NCBI GenBank assembly: GCA_964016885.1
Contig: OZ024740.1
Coordinates: 338,520,001 to 338,584,000, forward strand
Direction of reading: 5' to 3'
Source: Eledone cirrhosa
Taxonomy: Eukaryota
DNA: 64,000 bases
The number at the start of each line of letters is the position of its first letter. Positions within the stretch are counted from its first letter, which is position 1. Shown piece after piece: positions 22,413 to 64,000 of this stretch. Under the pieces are notes generated by a model. The model worked only from the letters and a program-made list of their open reading frames with translations, made no database searches and was not told where the DNA came from. Made by a program: the position numbers and the translations under genes.

Positions 22413-22839
22413 ATATGATTTGAGGGAACTTCACTCCTATTTCTATCAAGTAATGTGACTACATAGAGTCCTTCATTGGTGTGTGTCAATTATAGTAAAG
22501 GGGGAACATGTAGTGAGAAAATTGTGTTCCAATAAATTTTATAAAATCTGTGTGAGGGTGGTTAATCTGGTTCCTTCTGTTTCACTTTGGTGAGAGAAAA
22601 AGAGCTTATATCTAGTTTATTTTACCTACAAAGACTAAAGCACTGCTGTTATATCAGTTTTTAAATGTTACCTAAATTATAAAATATAAATTCTTATATT
22701 ATAAATTTCACCCCCTCCCCCACTCTCTCTCTCTCTCTCTCTCTCTCTCTCTCTCTCTCTCTCTCTCTCTCTCTCTCTCTCTATATATATATATATATAT
22801 ATATATATATATATATATATATATATATATATATATATA

Positions 22840-23475
22840 TAACGAAGGAATTGTGGTAAGGAACCAGATGGACCATAACGCACCAAAGTACTCAATACTT
22901 AGTGTAATAGGAACAAATATGACCCCCCCACGGCAGAGCTCAAGCCGTTTCGATGGCTATTTCTGGACTAAGTAATAATTTTTAGCCTGGTAAATAAATA
23001 GCCAAACTTATCAAGGGGTACTTCCTTATATGGGAAAATAGTAATTGTCAAGAGGATTGGTTAAAATTTGTTATAAAGACAAATAAATCTGTCATGGCAT
23101 TTGGTGGGAGGTAGGGGTGGCTGAACTTGCCCGTAGAACAAAGAGGGAGTGAAGAAATCCAGTCAGGCTTGAAAGTGAAATCTATACAGCAGATTCTAAG
23201 GATAAAGTATGAAAAGTCTAAAAATTGTCCTGGAGAAAAGGAGGAGGGGAGTTGAAAGAATAGGTAAGTCCAAAGGGAGTAAAATAAAATTAAGAATAAA
23301 AAAATATATATATATATCTAAGAATAAAAAAATAATAAATATATAAAAAAATGTTGATAGTGAGAAATGAATAAAAAAATAAAGACAGTAGAGTCTATAA
23401 ACAGCTGCTAAAAGTAGGGATTGCTAAGCTATAGAAAAGTATAACAGGTAGAGAATGGGGTCATATTTGTTCTTA
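22840..23475 (-). mobile_element. (TA)n-flanked non-coding PLE-like element with HHR variant
   Basis: Short inverted end ggggtcatatttgttc (23457) versus 22911-22926; HHR at 22923-23020. Confidence 0.6.
22923..23020 (-). ncRNA. Type I HHR with U3-A8 core and GUG triplet (probably inactive copy)
   Basis: rc: cccc TTGATAA g..tggctattt...aaatagcca.. GAAA cggc(ttgagctct)gccg TG gggg. Confidence 0.6.
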
Positions 23476-23489
23476 TATATATATATATA

Positions 23490-23765
23490 GTTATGTAATA
23501 AACAACATAAGATAATTATTTCATTTACCAGTGGTTTCTGAAAGCAGATATATCTGTTTTCAGTCATGAGAATGAATAAAACATGGTGTTTTTATTAAAT
23601 ATTTAATAAAAACACCATGTTTTATTCATTCTGACGGATTGAAAACAGATATATCTGCTTTCAAGAAACCACTGGTAAATGAAATAATTATCTTATGTTG
23701 TTTATTACATGGCTAATAAGCTCTGTAACCTACATAGAGCACTCTTTTTTCCTGTACCTTTCCGA
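23490..23765. mobile_element. Foldback element (about 110-bp arms), each arm carrying a mutated HHR
   Basis: Centre ttaaatatttaa; + arm ttcatt CTGACGG attgaaa..tttcaa GAAA ccactgg TA aatgaa (23625-23683); - arm core reads CTCATGA. Confidence 0.7.
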
Positions 23766-23787
23766 TATATATATATATATATATATA

Positions 23788-24400
23788 TAAAATGGAATAG
23801 AATGAAATGAAATTTCATTTCTCACTCTTAGTACAGCACTTACTTAAATGTAAGTATGTATGTATACGTACATACATATATGCATACAGACGTACAGTAG
23901 CATGTATATATATATATATATATATATATATATATATATATATATATATATATATATACATACAGGCACACATATATATATATATATGTACGTATCAGTT
24001 TAGCGGACATTTATTATAATGTCCGCTTTGTCCGTTTGTAAACAAACGGACAGCCTGATTTATGCCGTACGGTGTTAAGGCAACCACGTCACCTTTTTGT
24101 TCAACACTGACACAGGAACGATGTACTAGTTTCAAGCTTGTTAGCTATCGTCAGCACCGTATACCCTTCTGCCAGATGGTTGAACGTTCGAAAGTATATA
24201 CTTTCTTTATGAAAATTAACGGCTGAGCAGCCTAATTTGCATATCGAGTGAGTTCAGTCGGCCAGGCGCACCGAAAACGATAAAATGGAATAGAATGAAA
24301 TGAAATTTCATTTCTCACTCTTAGTACGGCACTTACTTAAATGTAAGTATGTATGTATACGTACATACATATATGCATACAGACGTACAGTAGCATGTAT
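23788..24400 (-). mobile_element. Retrozyme-like element, about 493-nt unit with about 120-bp terminal redundancy
   Basis: taaaatggaatag... at 23788 and 24281; HHR inside; (TA)n flanks. Confidence 0.8.
24119..24159 (-). ncRNA. Minimal type I HHR
   Basis: rc: cggtg CTGACGA t-agct(aaca)agct-t GAAA ctag TA catcg. Confidence 0.85.
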
Positions 24401-24420
24401 ATATATATATATATATATAT

Positions 24421-25190
24421 ATAAGATCAAAAGATGGTTAAAGGAGTTCCATGTATTTTATTATGCGCATTTCAAAAACAAACATCATCATGCAATAATA
24501 TTTGTGTTTTCATCAGATAAAACAGGAGAACATGATATGAAGGCTAAAAACACTTGTGGATAGTGCAGTTTTAAATCAACATATGAAAAGTGGTTTTAGA
24601 TTGATGTGTGATATTGGGAAAAATATTTTATTTAGAGAGGGGGGGGGGTGGAAAGGATGAAAAAGGGGAGGAGATGAGAGGGAGAGATGGGTGATAGAGA
24701 GAAAGAGATAGTTTTTATAACTGAGAGAAGATATATTGTTTTACATAGAGAGGTTGAAAACCGTTGGAAGATAATGTATAAATTAAAAGAATTTGAAAAT
24801 TAACGAAGGGAAAGATATGTACGAGGAAAAAATATTTTATTTAGGGAGGGGGTGGGGTGGAAAGGATGAAAAAAGGGGGAGGAGATGAGAGTGAAGGTGG
24901 AGAGGGAGAGATGGGTGATAGAGAGAAAGAGATAGTTTTTATAACTGAGAAAAGATATATTGTTTTACATAGAGAGGTTGAGAACCGTTGGAAGATAATG
25001 TATAAATTAAAAGAATTTGAAAATTAACGAAGGGAAAAATATTTACGAGGAAAGAGAGGGAGTTTATGTATGAAGATGTTTAACCATCTTTTGATCTTAT
25101 ATTATGTATACTCCAGTCCTACAAACTGTAGAGTGCTTCTTATCCGATATCTGCATTGCTTTATTGTACTACAATAAAACTCACCTCCTA
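24421..25190 (-). mobile_element. HHR-bearing non-coding element with internal about 220-bp duplication and 22-bp inverted end
   Basis: ataagatcaaaagatggttaaa is inverted at about 25079; direct repeats at about 24620-24830 and 24830-25050. Confidence 0.7.
24454..24524 (-). ncRNA. Type I HHR
   Basis: rc: tgttttat CTGATGA aaacacaaatatt...atgtttgttttt GAAA tgcgca TA ataaaata. Confidence 0.8.
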
Positions 25191-25383
25191 CATATATATA
25201 TATATATATATATATATATATATATATACATACAAGCACACATATATATATGTACGTATCAGTTTAGCTAACATTTATTATAATGTCCGCTTTGTCAGTT
25301 TTGTAAACAAACGGACAGCCTGATTTATGCCGTACGGTGTTAAGGCAACCACGTCACCTTTTTGTTCAACACTGACACAGGAA

Positions 25384-25424
25384 CGATGTACTAGTTTCAA
25401 GCTTGTTAGCTATCGTCAGCACCG
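25384..25424 (-). ncRNA. Minimal HHR in a truncated second copy (25229-25424) of the 23788 family
   Basis: Same sequence as 24119-24159; the copy ends exactly at stem I, followed by (TA)n. Confidence 0.85.
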
Positions 25425-25440
25425 ATATATATATATATAT

Positions 25441-61995: not shown

Positions 61996-62139
61996 TATAT
62001 ATATATATATATCTTTATATATATATATATATATATATATATATATATATATATATATATATATATATATATATATATATATATATATATATATATGGAG
62101 GAAGTTATAGTTCACTTGAAGCATTGTGTAATGAGGTAT

Positions 62140-62490
62140 AAACGTTTCTATATGTATAATAAAACCAAAACAGTGCAGGTATGGACATAGAATAAAGAAT
62201 GCAAATGCAAAAGATATTGTTGACAATTAGTCTTTTACCTTAGATTTATTTAAATGTCCTTAATTTTCGAGATAATATCTCTTCTTCAGCATGACTTGGC
62301 AAGCTATTTAGAACACTGGTTTAACCGCTTTACTTCCCCCCGAAAAAGAGATATCTCGAAAATTAAGGATATTTAAATAAATCTAAGGTAAAAGACTAAT
62401 TGTCAACAATATCTTTTGCATTTGCATTCTTTATTCTATGTCCATACCTGCATTGTTTTGGCTTTAGTATACATATACAAACATTTATAT
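62140..62490. mobile_element. Foldback element (about 140-bp arms) with degenerate HHR
   Basis: 62140-62283 versus 62346-62488; rc CTGAAGA a gagata/tatctc GAAA. Confidence 0.7.
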
Positions 62491-62687
62491 ATATATAAAT
62501 ACCATATTTATTTTTTGATACCCAGATTCCTGATGATTTCTAAAGAATGAAACAGTTCTAGTCCTGTAGAATCTCATCTCTCTCTCTCTCTCTCTCTCTC
62601 TCTCTCTATATATATATATATATATATATATATATATATATATATATATATATATATATATATATATATATAGAGAGAGAGAGAGAG

Positions 62688-62890
62688 ATGAAAAATAACC
62701 GAGGTGTCCTACACGAGTGAAAGTATAAAGAAAAAAGGATGAAATCGAAAATGCAACTGGGGTCTTATTTAAAAATATATATATATATATATATATATAT
62801 ATATTTATTTGGTTCATTTACCGGTTTCGCAGTTCTTCTGCTTTTCAAAAGTCGAGTTGAGATGGAGGGTCTGTGGTTTTTCTCACATAT
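62688..62890 (-). mobile_element. Further pLTR fragment of the U3-A8 HHR family
   Basis: Reverse complement of 34418-34598; core at 62816-62852. Confidence 0.75.
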
Positions 62891-63277
62891 TTTTTTCTTT
62901 ATATATATGTATATATATATATATATATATATATATATATGCAAAAGTTCTATTTAAATTGTTGGGATACAACAAGCAAATATTTTTATAACTGATATAA
63001 AGCACTCGACAAATATTTGGAGTAGATATATGATATTAATAAATGGAAACTATATTTATAAAACCATATTTATTTCATTATATATATTTCAAGGATACCA
63101 AGTTAAATTATGGTATGCCTTCAAAATACAATATATAACAAGTAAGTATGTTTTGAAACAGTGAGCGAGTTTGAAATTAGAAAATATATAGCTTTCACCG
63201 TATTTTTTTTTAACTAAAGGAATTTTAGCTTGATAACGGGGTTTAGAACCCTCAGATAAATGGAAAAATATGAGTAT

Positions 63278-63348
63278 TGACGTACATGGGAGTCGAACCC
63301 ACATCGGTGGTTATCGCGACCACTGTGCTACCATTACACCAACACATC
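63278..63348 (-). ncRNA. tRNA-like cloverleaf (inverted copy)
   Basis: gatgtgt tg gtg(taatggtag)cac a gtggt(cgcgata)accac cgat gtggg(ttcgact)cccat gtacgtc a. Confidence 0.7.
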
Positions 63349-63523
63349 ACCCGTCTCTTTCCATTCAAATTAGAAACAAGCTAAAATTCCTTTAGTTAAA
63401 AAAAAATACGGTGAAAGCTATATATTTTCTAATTTCAAACTCGCTCACTGTTTCAAAACATACTTACTTGCCATTTAAACTCGCTAAGAATGTAGTTTCT
63501 AATTTGAATGGAAAGAGACGAGT

Positions 63524-63594
63524 GATGTGTTGGTGTAATGGTAGCACAGTGGTCGCGATAACCATAGATGTGGGTTCGACTCCCATGTACGTCA
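63524..63594 (+). ncRNA. tRNA-like cloverleaf with A and B boxes and T5 about 10 nt downstream
   Basis: 7-bp acceptor (3 GU), D, anticodon and T arms; loop CG-CGA-TA lacks U33. Confidence 0.72.
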
Positions 63595-63794
63595 ATACTC
63601 ACCTTTTTCCATTTATCTGAGGGTTCTAAACCCCGTTATCAAGCTAAAATATATAACAGTTTTATAAATAGACATTGACGTACCCTTTTAAAAAGTGACC
63701 GTTGCTTTTGGAGACCATCGGGATGGCCTCCAAAAGCAACGGTCACTTTTTAAAAGGGTACGTCAATGTCTATTTATAAAATTGTTATATATTG

Positions 63795-63859
63795 TATTTT
63801 GTCTGATGAAGGCATACCATAATTTAACTTGGTATCCTTGAAATATATATAATGAAATA
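63795..63859 (+). ncRNA. Minimal HHR in a multiply inverted element (about 63025-63900)
   Basis: tattttgt CTGATGA aggcatacca..tggtatcctt GAAA tatata TA atgaaata. Confidence 0.82.
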
Positions 63860-64000
63860 AATATGGTTTTATAAATATAGTTTCCATTTATTAATATCGT
63901 ATATATATATATATATATATATATATATATATATAAACTTAAATCTGTTATTTTAATAAATATTTGCTCTAGGGTTCTTATATATTTGATATATATTTAT

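What the first reader, a model, noticed from the sequence alone, without database searches (positions are those of the whole stretch)
22780..63935. (TA)n microsatellites strung with about a dozen unrelated hammerhead-ribozyme mini-elements plus their likely PLE mobilisers
Seen: chains of short non-coding inserts, each separated by a (TA)n tract (22780-25440, 28350-34690, 40550-42866, 58600-63935). About 15 near-intact and about 10 degenerate type I HHRs occur in families with no shared sequence beyond the core. Each insert shows terminal redundancy, tandem units or inverted segments. Coding PLE remnants sit in the same context (29146, 37582, 50227). Established: PLE pseudo-LTRs carry minimal HHRs, PLE insertions show partial tandem or inverted ends, and non-LTR retrozymes are proposed to be PLE-mobilised. 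Inference: a diverse community of non-autonomous ribozyme retroelements targets (TA)n, with each insertion splitting a tract and leaving new targets.
Basis: partly seen in the sequence, partly recalled or inferred. Interest (0 to 1): 0.9.

Follow-up and report, generated by a model that had tools for sequence, protein, structure and literature searches.

The report
Penelope ends and retrozymes in (TA)n
The self-cutting-RNA (hammerhead) motifs strung between the TA repeats are real, but most are truncated tail ends of an already known kind of jumping gene (Penelope-like elements), while three families are protein-less ribozyme repeats that leave the same insertion footprint and so are likely copied by those jumping genes.

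Summary
Observation confirmed. A strict scan finds 13 type I hammerheads (shuffles 0.19); about 16 more are weakened or variant copies. In 800 kb sampled elsewhere in the genome, 36 of 41 collapsed hits have (TA)n within 300 nt downstream (8-15 expected). Nine families (B, C, E, J, K, X, D, P1, P2) are 5'-truncated 3' ends of coding PLEs, six of them Hydra-type, whose (TA)n preference is published. Three (A, F, G) are ORF-less head-to-tail retrozymes; A and G are homologous. H, I and a tRNA-bearing unit are tandem units without a hammerhead. The useful result is a shared footprint: two fixed 3' ends 60-98 nt apart, one short and one long end in 87 of 94 two-armed inserts, and TA microhomology at 13 of 17 ends. 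This is direct footprint evidence that retrozymes ride PLE machinery. Cleavage, expression and the partner PLE are untested. The scan noted similar PLE-end clusters and a tRNA-bearing unit before, in other genomes.

The parts
22842..23473 (-). Family J: 3' end of a Hydra-type PLE; large HHR with U3:A8 core at 23013, this copy has G at the cleavage position; ends at the long end
   Evidence: ORF-linked in L270, L052
23490..23764 (.). Family C: two-armed (head-to-head) 3' end of a Hydra-type PLE; HHR + 23631-23677 (extra core base), mutated HHR - 23570
   Evidence: 1,660 exact 34-mers; ORF follows the tail in L301
23790..24397 (-). Retrozyme A: one unit (about 440 nt plus internal (TA)n) and 115 nt of the next; HHR 24154-24124 with CUAG loop III
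24424..25191 (-). Family B: pLTR of a Hydra-type PLE with an inverted tail arm, sitting in the internal (TA)n of the A array; HHR 24516-24462
   Evidence: (L193: pLTR, 820-aa ORF, pLTR)
25229..25424 (-). Upstream part of the same A array; HHR 25419-25389
28401..29133 (+). Family I: 605-nt non-coding tandem unit plus 128 nt; one fixed 3' end at (TA)n; no HHR found
29147..31324 (-). P1: 5'-truncated PLE (RT thumb, CX4CxxC linker and GIY-YIG at about 31150-30405; long 3' UTR); inverted 5' arm 31155-31324 with U3:A8 HHR at 31224
   Evidence: (GIY-YIG E 1.1e-6)
31369..32013 (-). Family D: two-armed 3' end of PLE P3 (Neptune/Nematis-type linker); HHR 31635-31601
   Evidence: (863-aa ORF in L201)
32025..32225 (-). 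Family E: 3' end of a Hydra-type PLE; HHR 32101-32063
   Evidence: 1,359 exact 39-mers; L269, L272
32974..33052 (-). K-like fragment with truncated HHR
33260..33969 (+). Retrozyme F: 529-nt unit plus redundancy and an inverted 62-nt arm; HHR 33724-33792 with 8-bp stem III
34018..34405 (.). Family E two-armed insert (short end left, long end right); HHRs - 34099 and + 34224
34419..34622 (+). P1 3' end fragment; intact U3:A8 HHR 34452-34481 with CCGG loop III
37573..38526 (-). Decayed relative of P2 (74% nucleotide identity); degenerate HHR 37807
40616..41354 (-). Family H: 528-nt non-coding tandem unit plus 214 nt; conserved CUGAUGA half-core without GAAA; one main 3' end at (TA)n
41483..42840 (.). 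Retrozyme G: 466-nt units, two on - strand and a partial inverted arm on +; HHRs - 41812 (stem I mismatch), - 42278, + 42708
   Evidence: 4,959 exact 37-mers
50226..52189 (-). P2: 5'-truncated PLE, open 474-aa RT C-terminus, CX4CxxC linker and GIY-YIG-type EN; degenerate HHR 50480; a 99%-identical copy exists elsewhere
52268..52526 (-). Family X: 3' end of a Hydra-type PLE with variant core (CAGAAGA); second copy at 54079-54594 (+)
   Evidence: ORF about 560 nt upstream in L034, L271, L338
62097..62485 (.). Family Q: palindromic insert with possible minimal HHR variant; unresolved
62498..62571 (+). Family W: HHR 62530-62568; autonomy unresolved
62673..62888 (-). P1 3' end with its internal TA run expanded (62775-62804); HHR about 62848 with weakened stem I
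62941..63899 (.). Family K: two-armed 3' end of a Hydra-type PLE; HHR + 63803-63851, core-deleted copy near 63120
   Evidence: (L275, L277, L279)
63139..63650 (.). tRNA-Ser-like-bearing two-armed element nested in K, flanked by a TATATAA duplication; tandem unit in 2 other loci

Best explanation
The region is a pile-up of Penelope-like-element (PLE) insertions in (TA)n: nine hammerhead families are truncated 3' ends of protein-coding PLEs, and three (A, F, G) are protein-less tandem retrozymes with the same insertion footprint, likely copied in trans by PLE proteins. Shown: 3' ends sit at (TA)n; each family has two fixed ends 60-98 nt apart (the PLE 'tail'); two-armed inserts point outward with one short and one long end; the element sequence usually continues past each end with 2-6 alternating T/A bases; A, F and G read on from unit end to unit start with no ORF. 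Inferred: a PLE RT-endonuclease dimer nicks both strands of (TA)n; each freed 3' end pairs with one of the two AU-alternating sites that bracket the tail and primes a cDNA; the two cDNAs are joined head-to-head. Inferred and untested: retrozyme array transcripts self-cleave (A and G as dimers through the palindromic CUAG loop), possibly circularise, and template multi-unit cDNAs. Both flanks stay TA and several families carry internal TA, so new targets accumulate and chains form.
For: ORF linkage: B, pLTR-820 aa ORF-pLTR in L193 and 27 of 60 loci ORF-linked. D, 863-aa ORF in L201 and 37 of 69 loci linked. K in L275, L277, L279; E in L269, L272; C in L301. J in L270, L052; X in L034, L271, L338. 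P1 and P2 have their ORFs in the window. The B ORF has RLRW, DKT, CxCX5C, CxxC and CxH, lacks CCHH, and follows Hydra-1_Obim motif by motif by eye. Non-autonomy: head-to-tail units in the 30 best loci each of G, A and F; G arrays of 11 + 11 units diverging from a centre; an A-like array of 23.7 units. Footprint: short + long end in 87 of 94 two-armed inserts of 10 families, including G 10 of 11 and F 9 of 9, and A 6 of 6. Microhomology of 3 nt or more at 13 of 17 ends against a null of 0.109. Targeting: 36 of 41 against 8.0 and 14.7 expected; a control SINE-like repeat 8 of 84. HHR fold conserved between A and G with compensatory stems I and II. Units fold strongly as circles: z -8.9 (A), -12.0 (G), -3.2 (F).
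Against: No partner PLE was identified for A, F or G: no significant similarity to the 10 PLE ends compared. ORF-link rates are low even for families called autonomous (E 2 of 44, of which one is an unrelated neighbour; K 6 of 58; C 3 of 39; J 3 of 50; P1 0 of 30), so lack of a link alone is weak; non-autonomy rests on unit-to-unit read-through. Isolated HHR folds are mostly no more stable than shuffles (z -3.0 to +0.5). The L193 ORF hit no Pfam or NCBIfam family, so its assignment rests on motifs. Microhomology values were entered by hand, one end (G short) has only 1 nt, ends without a known read-through were dropped, and related families are not independent. In Frangieh 2024 the Poseidon RT starts at a site not homologous to the cut DNA and HHR cleavage is not needed in vitro. 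Cervera 2014 reports low activity of minimal HHRs; Li 2026 saw cleavage in 1 of 9 retrozyme dimers. H and I show one main end and almost no inverted arms.
Confidence: 0.8

Rival explanations
1. All families, A, F and G included, are just PLE 3' ends. The tandem ones are pLTR-derived minisatellites that spread as ordinary truncated PLE copies and expanded locally at the DNA level (unequal crossover), with no mobile retrozyme RNA.
For: Nine of twelve resolved HHR families are PLE ends. Li 2026 argues that retrozymes derive from pLTRs and amplify locally. Long arrays exist. Only about 2 Mb of 3 Gb was examined for partners.
Against: Dispersed G, A and F copies are circular permutations that run through the unit junction, with fixed 3' ends, at 98-99% (G, A) and 86-90% (F) identity on many contigs. 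Arrays diverge head-to-head with one short and one long end, which local crossover does not produce.
Confidence: 0.12
2. One reading: about a dozen unrelated non-autonomous ribozyme mini-elements, with the three coding remnants as their mobilisers.
For: In the window itself most inserts are short and non-coding. A, F and G fit.
Against: B, C, D, E, J, K and X are joined to their own ORFs elsewhere. A and G are homologues. No sequence link ties A, F or G to P1 or P2.
Confidence: 0.04
3. The palindromic inserts are DNA-level foldback or MITE-like elements that insert at TA, and the hammerheads are passengers.
For: Many inserts are near-perfect palindromes flanked by TA. The insert at 58260 has no HHR and begins like a DNA transposon (recalled motif, untested).
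Against: Arms are unequal, 5'-truncated at variable points and end at two different fixed sites. They are the termini of RT-encoding ORFs in nine families.
Confidence: 0.02

Closest known systems
Hydra-clade PLEs (Craig et al. 2021, PMC8557442; e.g. Hydra-1_Obim in its supplement)
   Same: C-terminal EN with CxCX5C linker, DKT and RW motifs, no CCHH, canonical HHR near the 3' end, (TA)n insertion, inverted arms and tail.
   Different: B, C, E, J, K and X are other families: their HHRs differ from the listed Hydra-1_Obim HHR. The B repeat period is 3.7 kb against 'generally <3 kb'. Tails are 67-98 nt against the 30-40 bp described for PLEs.
Neptune/Nematis-type PLEs (CX2-5CxxC linker, CCHH endonuclease) with minimal HHRs (Cervera & De la Pena 2014, PMC4209133)
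   Same: P1, P2 and P3 (family D) have a CX4CxxC linker before GIY-YIG, minimal HHRs including the U3:A8 core variant described there, and inverted 5' arms.
   Different: Clade not resolved by a tree. Tails are 60-65 nt.
Non-LTR retrozymes of animals (Cervera & de la Pena 2020, PMC7229834; Li, Clavereau & Pollet 2026 preprint 10.64898/2026.07.22.740005)
   Same: A, F and G are low-GC, non-coding, head-to-tail units with one type I HHR per unit, dispersed and in arrays, predicted to be highly self-paired, in a genome with active PLEs.
   Different: Units are 440-530 nt (170-400 nt in the 2020 paper; 51-972 in the preprint). They target (TA)n and carry the PLE two-end tail and head-to-head arms, which the parts of those papers I read do not describe. 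No parent pLTR was found. Expression, circularity and cleavage are untested.
Poseidon PAc in vitro mechanism (Frangieh et al. 2024, PMC11167929)
   Same: Two internal RT start sites define the tail; both strands are cut and extended; AT-rich target; predicted dimer.
   Different: There the start sites are described as non-homologous to the cut DNA. Here 13 of 17 ends show 3 nt or more of TA microhomology, and the tail is two to three times longer.

Membership tests
Type I hammerhead ribozyme | CUGANGA/GAAA/UH core with stems I-III in type I order | tested here: met
   13 strict hits against 0.19 in shuffles; compensatory stems between A and G
Type I hammerhead ribozyme | Self-cleavage of RNA as monomer or dimer | not testable with these tools
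   Needs in vitro transcription; no RNA data were available
EN+ Penelope-like element (B, C, D, E, J, K, X, P1, P2) | Single ORF with RT and C-terminal GIY-YIG-type EN joined to the HHR-bearing end | tested here: met
   E, C, J and X rest on 1-3 linked loci each
EN+ Penelope-like element (B, C, D, E, J, K, X, P1, P2) | pLTR or partial tandem, inverted 5' arm, optional 3' tail | tested here: met
   L193 pLTR-ORF-pLTR; two ends and short + long pairing; X shows two end clusters only; P2 tail not mapped
Hydra clade (B; by ORF similarity C, E, J, K, X) | DKT, RW(K), CxCX5C linker, CxxC/CxH, CCHH absent | tested here: met
   L193 ORF read against Craig 2021 section 11 and Hydra-1_Obim; for C, E, J, K, X only partial ORFs at 32-58% identity to it
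Hydra clade (B; by ORF similarity C, E, J, K, X) | Placement in an RT phylogeny with reference PLEs | not tested
   No reference set was loaded; comparison was by eye
Neptune vs Nematis (P1, P2, P3/D) | CX2-5CxxC linker plus clade placement | tested here: inconclusive
   Linker present; no tree built
Non-LTR retrozyme (A, F, G) | Non-coding head-to-tail repeats with a type I HHR in each unit, no LTR or ORF | tested here: met
   F was seen only up to about 1.5 units per arm
Non-LTR retrozyme (A, F, G) | Expressed as linear and circular RNA | not testable with these tools
   No RNA holder listed for G
Non-LTR retrozyme (H, I, tRNA-bearing unit) | Type I HHR in the unit | tested here: not met
   H has only CUGAUGA, I has none; they work like retrozymes in layout only

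The most novel reading that the evidence does not exclude
Animal retrozymes are mobilised by a (TA)n-nicking PLE dimer that primes both target strands by short base-pairing at two internal AU-alternating sites, copying a circular RNA in both directions into head-to-head arrays. The 60-100 nt tail, not the ribozyme, is the cis signal, so hammerhead-less and tRNA-bearing RNA circles (H, I, the tRNA-Ser unit) ride the same route, and family A carries its own (TA)n landing pad.
Probability: 0.35. Interest if true: 0.72.

Novelty: new member of a known kind. Interest (0 to 1): 0.47.

Why it matters
PLE mobilisation of animal retrozymes has been proposed from co-occurrence and pLTR similarity. Here three ORF-less families carry the PLE-specific insertion footprint, measured side by side with nine coding families in one genome. 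The short + long rule and the TA microhomology give a concrete, testable model of PLE priming, and young families (G: 4,959 exact HHR copies; B and P2: near-identical ORFs) supply natural substrates. Extrapolating the sample gives roughly 2 x 10^5 hammerheads in this genome. The bulk of the finding, PLE ends with HHRs in (TA)n, is already described.

Tried and rejected
Rfam scan of the window was dominated by miRNA-hairpin and TA-repeat noise; Rfam on H and I gave no ribozyme. A DNA search for E returned nothing, not even the window's own copy, because common words are skipped; a pattern search worked. Expression: no RNA holder listed for G, no evidence either way. Contigs of four coded runs from four studies cover the G unit and show end-to-start joints, which cannot tell tandem DNA from RNA circles. 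Empty-site alleles were not tested. The automated TSD scan was uninformative inside microsatellites; clear duplications were seen only by eye (ATCAATATATA at L002; TATATAA at 63138/63650). The A and I rows were discarded because the references held TA runs; they were redone. The ORF in L270, first credited to E, belongs to J. PDB, Pfam and NCBIfam gave no useful hit for the Hydra-type ORF. A type II/III HHR reading of H and I was considered and rejected because stems did not close. Inserts at 32345-32956 and 58260-62000 recur in other loci, but no HHR was found in them.

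
Full report
1. Setting. The window is G000:C1:338520001-338584000 of a 3.0-Gb, AT-rich genome; I did not identify the organism. It holds 86 (TA)6+ tracts. Family letters are mine.

2. The hammerheads are real. A strict type I descriptor gives 13 hits; 100 dinucleotide shuffles give mean 0.19, max 3. Family-wise BLAST adds 4 near-intact and about 12 degenerate or variant copies. 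Many have palindromic loop III (CUAG, CCGG, UGCGCA, UAUAUA), the dimer-type design described by Cervera & De la Pena 2014; P1 and J use the U3:A8 core reported there. Between 42738 and 62530 there is no strict hit, so the 58260-62000 chain is mostly other repeats.

3. (TA)n targeting is genome-wide. I took 80 stretches of 10 kb at round-number positions on 27 large contigs; this is a systematic sample, small contigs were not sampled. They hold 56 strict HHRs (shuffles 1-6). After collapsing arrays, 36 of 41 have (TA)6+ within 300 nt downstream; 1,000 permutations give 8.0 (anywhere) and 14.7 (same stretch), maxima 17 and 24. One array (L394) still contributes four of the 41. A common SINE-like repeat used as control scores 8 of 84. 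The window is about 3x richer than the sample. Craig 2021 names (TA)n as the preferred target of Naiad and Hydra PLEs, links the Neptune-type linker to microsatellite bias, and lists an octopus Hydra family with (TA)n preference.

4. Most families are PLE 3' ends. D: 24 of 30 best loci had a PLE protein hit, most directly upstream; L201 has an 863-aa ORF, 65% identical to P2. B: L193 is pLTR, 820-aa ORF, pLTR. K (L275, L277, L279), E (L269, L272) and C (L301) are joined to related ORFs. J (L270, L052) and X (L034, L271, L338, constant ~560-nt spacing) are too. P1 and P2 carry ORFs in the window. The L193 protein has RLRW, DKT, CxCX5C, CxxC and CxH and follows Hydra-1_Obim by eye; it had no Pfam or NCBIfam hit. 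P1, P2 and P3 have a CX4CxxC linker (Neptune/Nematis type, not resolved). Links for E, C, J and X rest on one to three loci each.

5. Three families are true retrozymes. G (466 nt), A (about 440 nt plus internal TA) and F (529 nt) read from unit end to unit start in the 30 best loci each, counting the window's own copy. Same-strand ORFs without intervening TA lay near 1 of 65 A loci, 0 of 30 F loci and 1 of 35 G loci; I read those two as neighbours. G's 37-nt HHR occurs 4,959 times exactly, often as head-to-head arrays such as 11 + 11 units. An A-like array of 23.7 units fills L394. A and G are collinear homologues (306 of 481 columns) with the core and CUAG kept and stems I and II changed compensatorily. 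Units fold as circles far below shuffles for A, G and F. H (528 nt) and I (605 nt) are also tandem units ending at TA in 25 loci each, but H has only a half core, I has none, and both show one main end. A tRNA-Ser-like unit is nested in K with a TATATAA duplication and is tandem in 2 of the 5 other loci found.

6. Shared footprint. Ends joined to TA fall in two clusters per family: tails of 72 (G), 84 (F), about 60 (A), 60 (D), 89 (B), 98 (E), 90 (K), 67 (C), 65 (P1) and 68 (J) nt, against 30-40 bp in Craig 2021, Frangieh 2024 and Arkhipova 2013. Of 94 two-armed inserts in 10 families, 87 pair a short with a long end, 2 pair short with short, none long with long, and 5 have an off-site end (A and I rows dropped as artefactual). 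A, redone, gives 6 of 6. Where the read-through is known, the element continues with alternating T/A bases: 16 of 17 ends have 2 nt or more and 13 of 17 have 3 nt or more, against null rates of 0.22 and 0.109. These values were entered by hand, five ends were dropped (four without read-through, plus H's minor end), and families are not independent. At L002 a G insert sits in a short site with an 11-nt duplication and no long TA, so the tracts are targets, not products.

7. Mechanism. Shown: section 6, plus nesting (B between TA runs inside an A array; the tRNA unit in K). Known: a Poseidon protein cuts and extends both strands of AT-rich DNA from two internal RNA sites that define the tail, is predicted to be a dimer, and does not need HHR cleavage in vitro. 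Inferred: here each nicked TA strand pairs with one of the two AU-alternating sites, giving two outward-pointing cDNAs; retrozyme RNAs present the same two sites and are copied in trans. Untested: self-cleavage, circles, and which PLE serves A, F and G; no similarity to 10 PLE ends was found.

8. Relation to print. Cervera & de la Pena 2020 propose PLEs as mobilisers. Li 2026 shows co-occurrence and pLTR similarity in Xenopus, with cleavage in 1 of 9 dimers tested. Craig 2021 describes putative non-autonomous Chlamys PLEs with head-to-tail insertions. I found no paper describing the tail footprint on retrozymes or TA-microhomology priming in PLEs in searches. The library lacks most subscription papers, Repbase and Dfam were not available, and the preprint's supplements were closed, so some of these families may be catalogued. 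What I saw: Li 2026, parts 1-3 of 5; Frangieh 2024 and Cervera 2014, parts 1-2 of 4; Craig 2021, passages, section 11 and supplement searches; Cervera 2020, passages and Discussion; Arkhipova 2013 and PMC8969392, passages. Two earlier scan notes from other genomes report a similar PLE-end cluster and a tRNA-bearing TA-targeting unit; they are leads, not support. None existed for this genome under 'hammerhead'.

9. Verdict. Observation confirmed; interpretation partly supported; new members of known kinds. Interest 0.47, carried by the footprint evidence linking retrozymes to PLE machinery and by the testable priming rule.

Noticed in passing
window 63139-63650; L255, L316: tRNA-Ser-like gene (anticodon CGA here, GGA in L255) inside a roughly 290-nt tandem unit with two ends about 85 nt apart, nested in K; resembles scan note e1-7810660.
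   Followed up: partly
window 24232-24243 and 41901-41912 (- strand): A and G both keep TATGCAAATTAG (an octamer motif, recalled as an snRNA-type enhancer) about 40 nt before a TATA-like stretch upstream of the HHR; a possible internal promoter.
   Followed up: no
G000:C1:30831838-30840570 and 56387559-56397724; L394: Long bidirectional G arrays (7 + 13 and 11 + 11 units) and a 420-nt A-like satellite of at least 23.7 units; suggestive of rolling-circle copying.
   Followed up: partly
window 14677-16620 and near 54838: Poseidon-like RT remnant (YIDD motif, 34% to a remnant in L206) with partial HHR cores at 16514 and 54838.
   Followed up: no
window 58260-58615: Insert beginning CAGTGGCGGA between TA tracts, repeated in 4 other loci, no HHR; looks like a DNA-transposon terminus (recalled).
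   Followed up: partly
window 35139-35325 and about ten other sites: Very common repeat of about 185 nt, SINE-like (label recalled), 84 hits in 800 kb, not TA-associated; used as control.
   Followed up: partly
window 38616-40535 and 26224-27260: Inverted 439-nt arms (97% identical) around LINE-like RT remnants, starting right after a D-family tail fragment at 38571; possibly captured by a PLE insertion.
   Followed up: no
L052, L061, L047, L373: Further HHR families not in the window, including a 311-nt tandem array with CGCG loop III.
   Followed up: no
window 19794-21495: TGG-rich 51-nt minisatellite array with strong GC skew.
   Followed up: no
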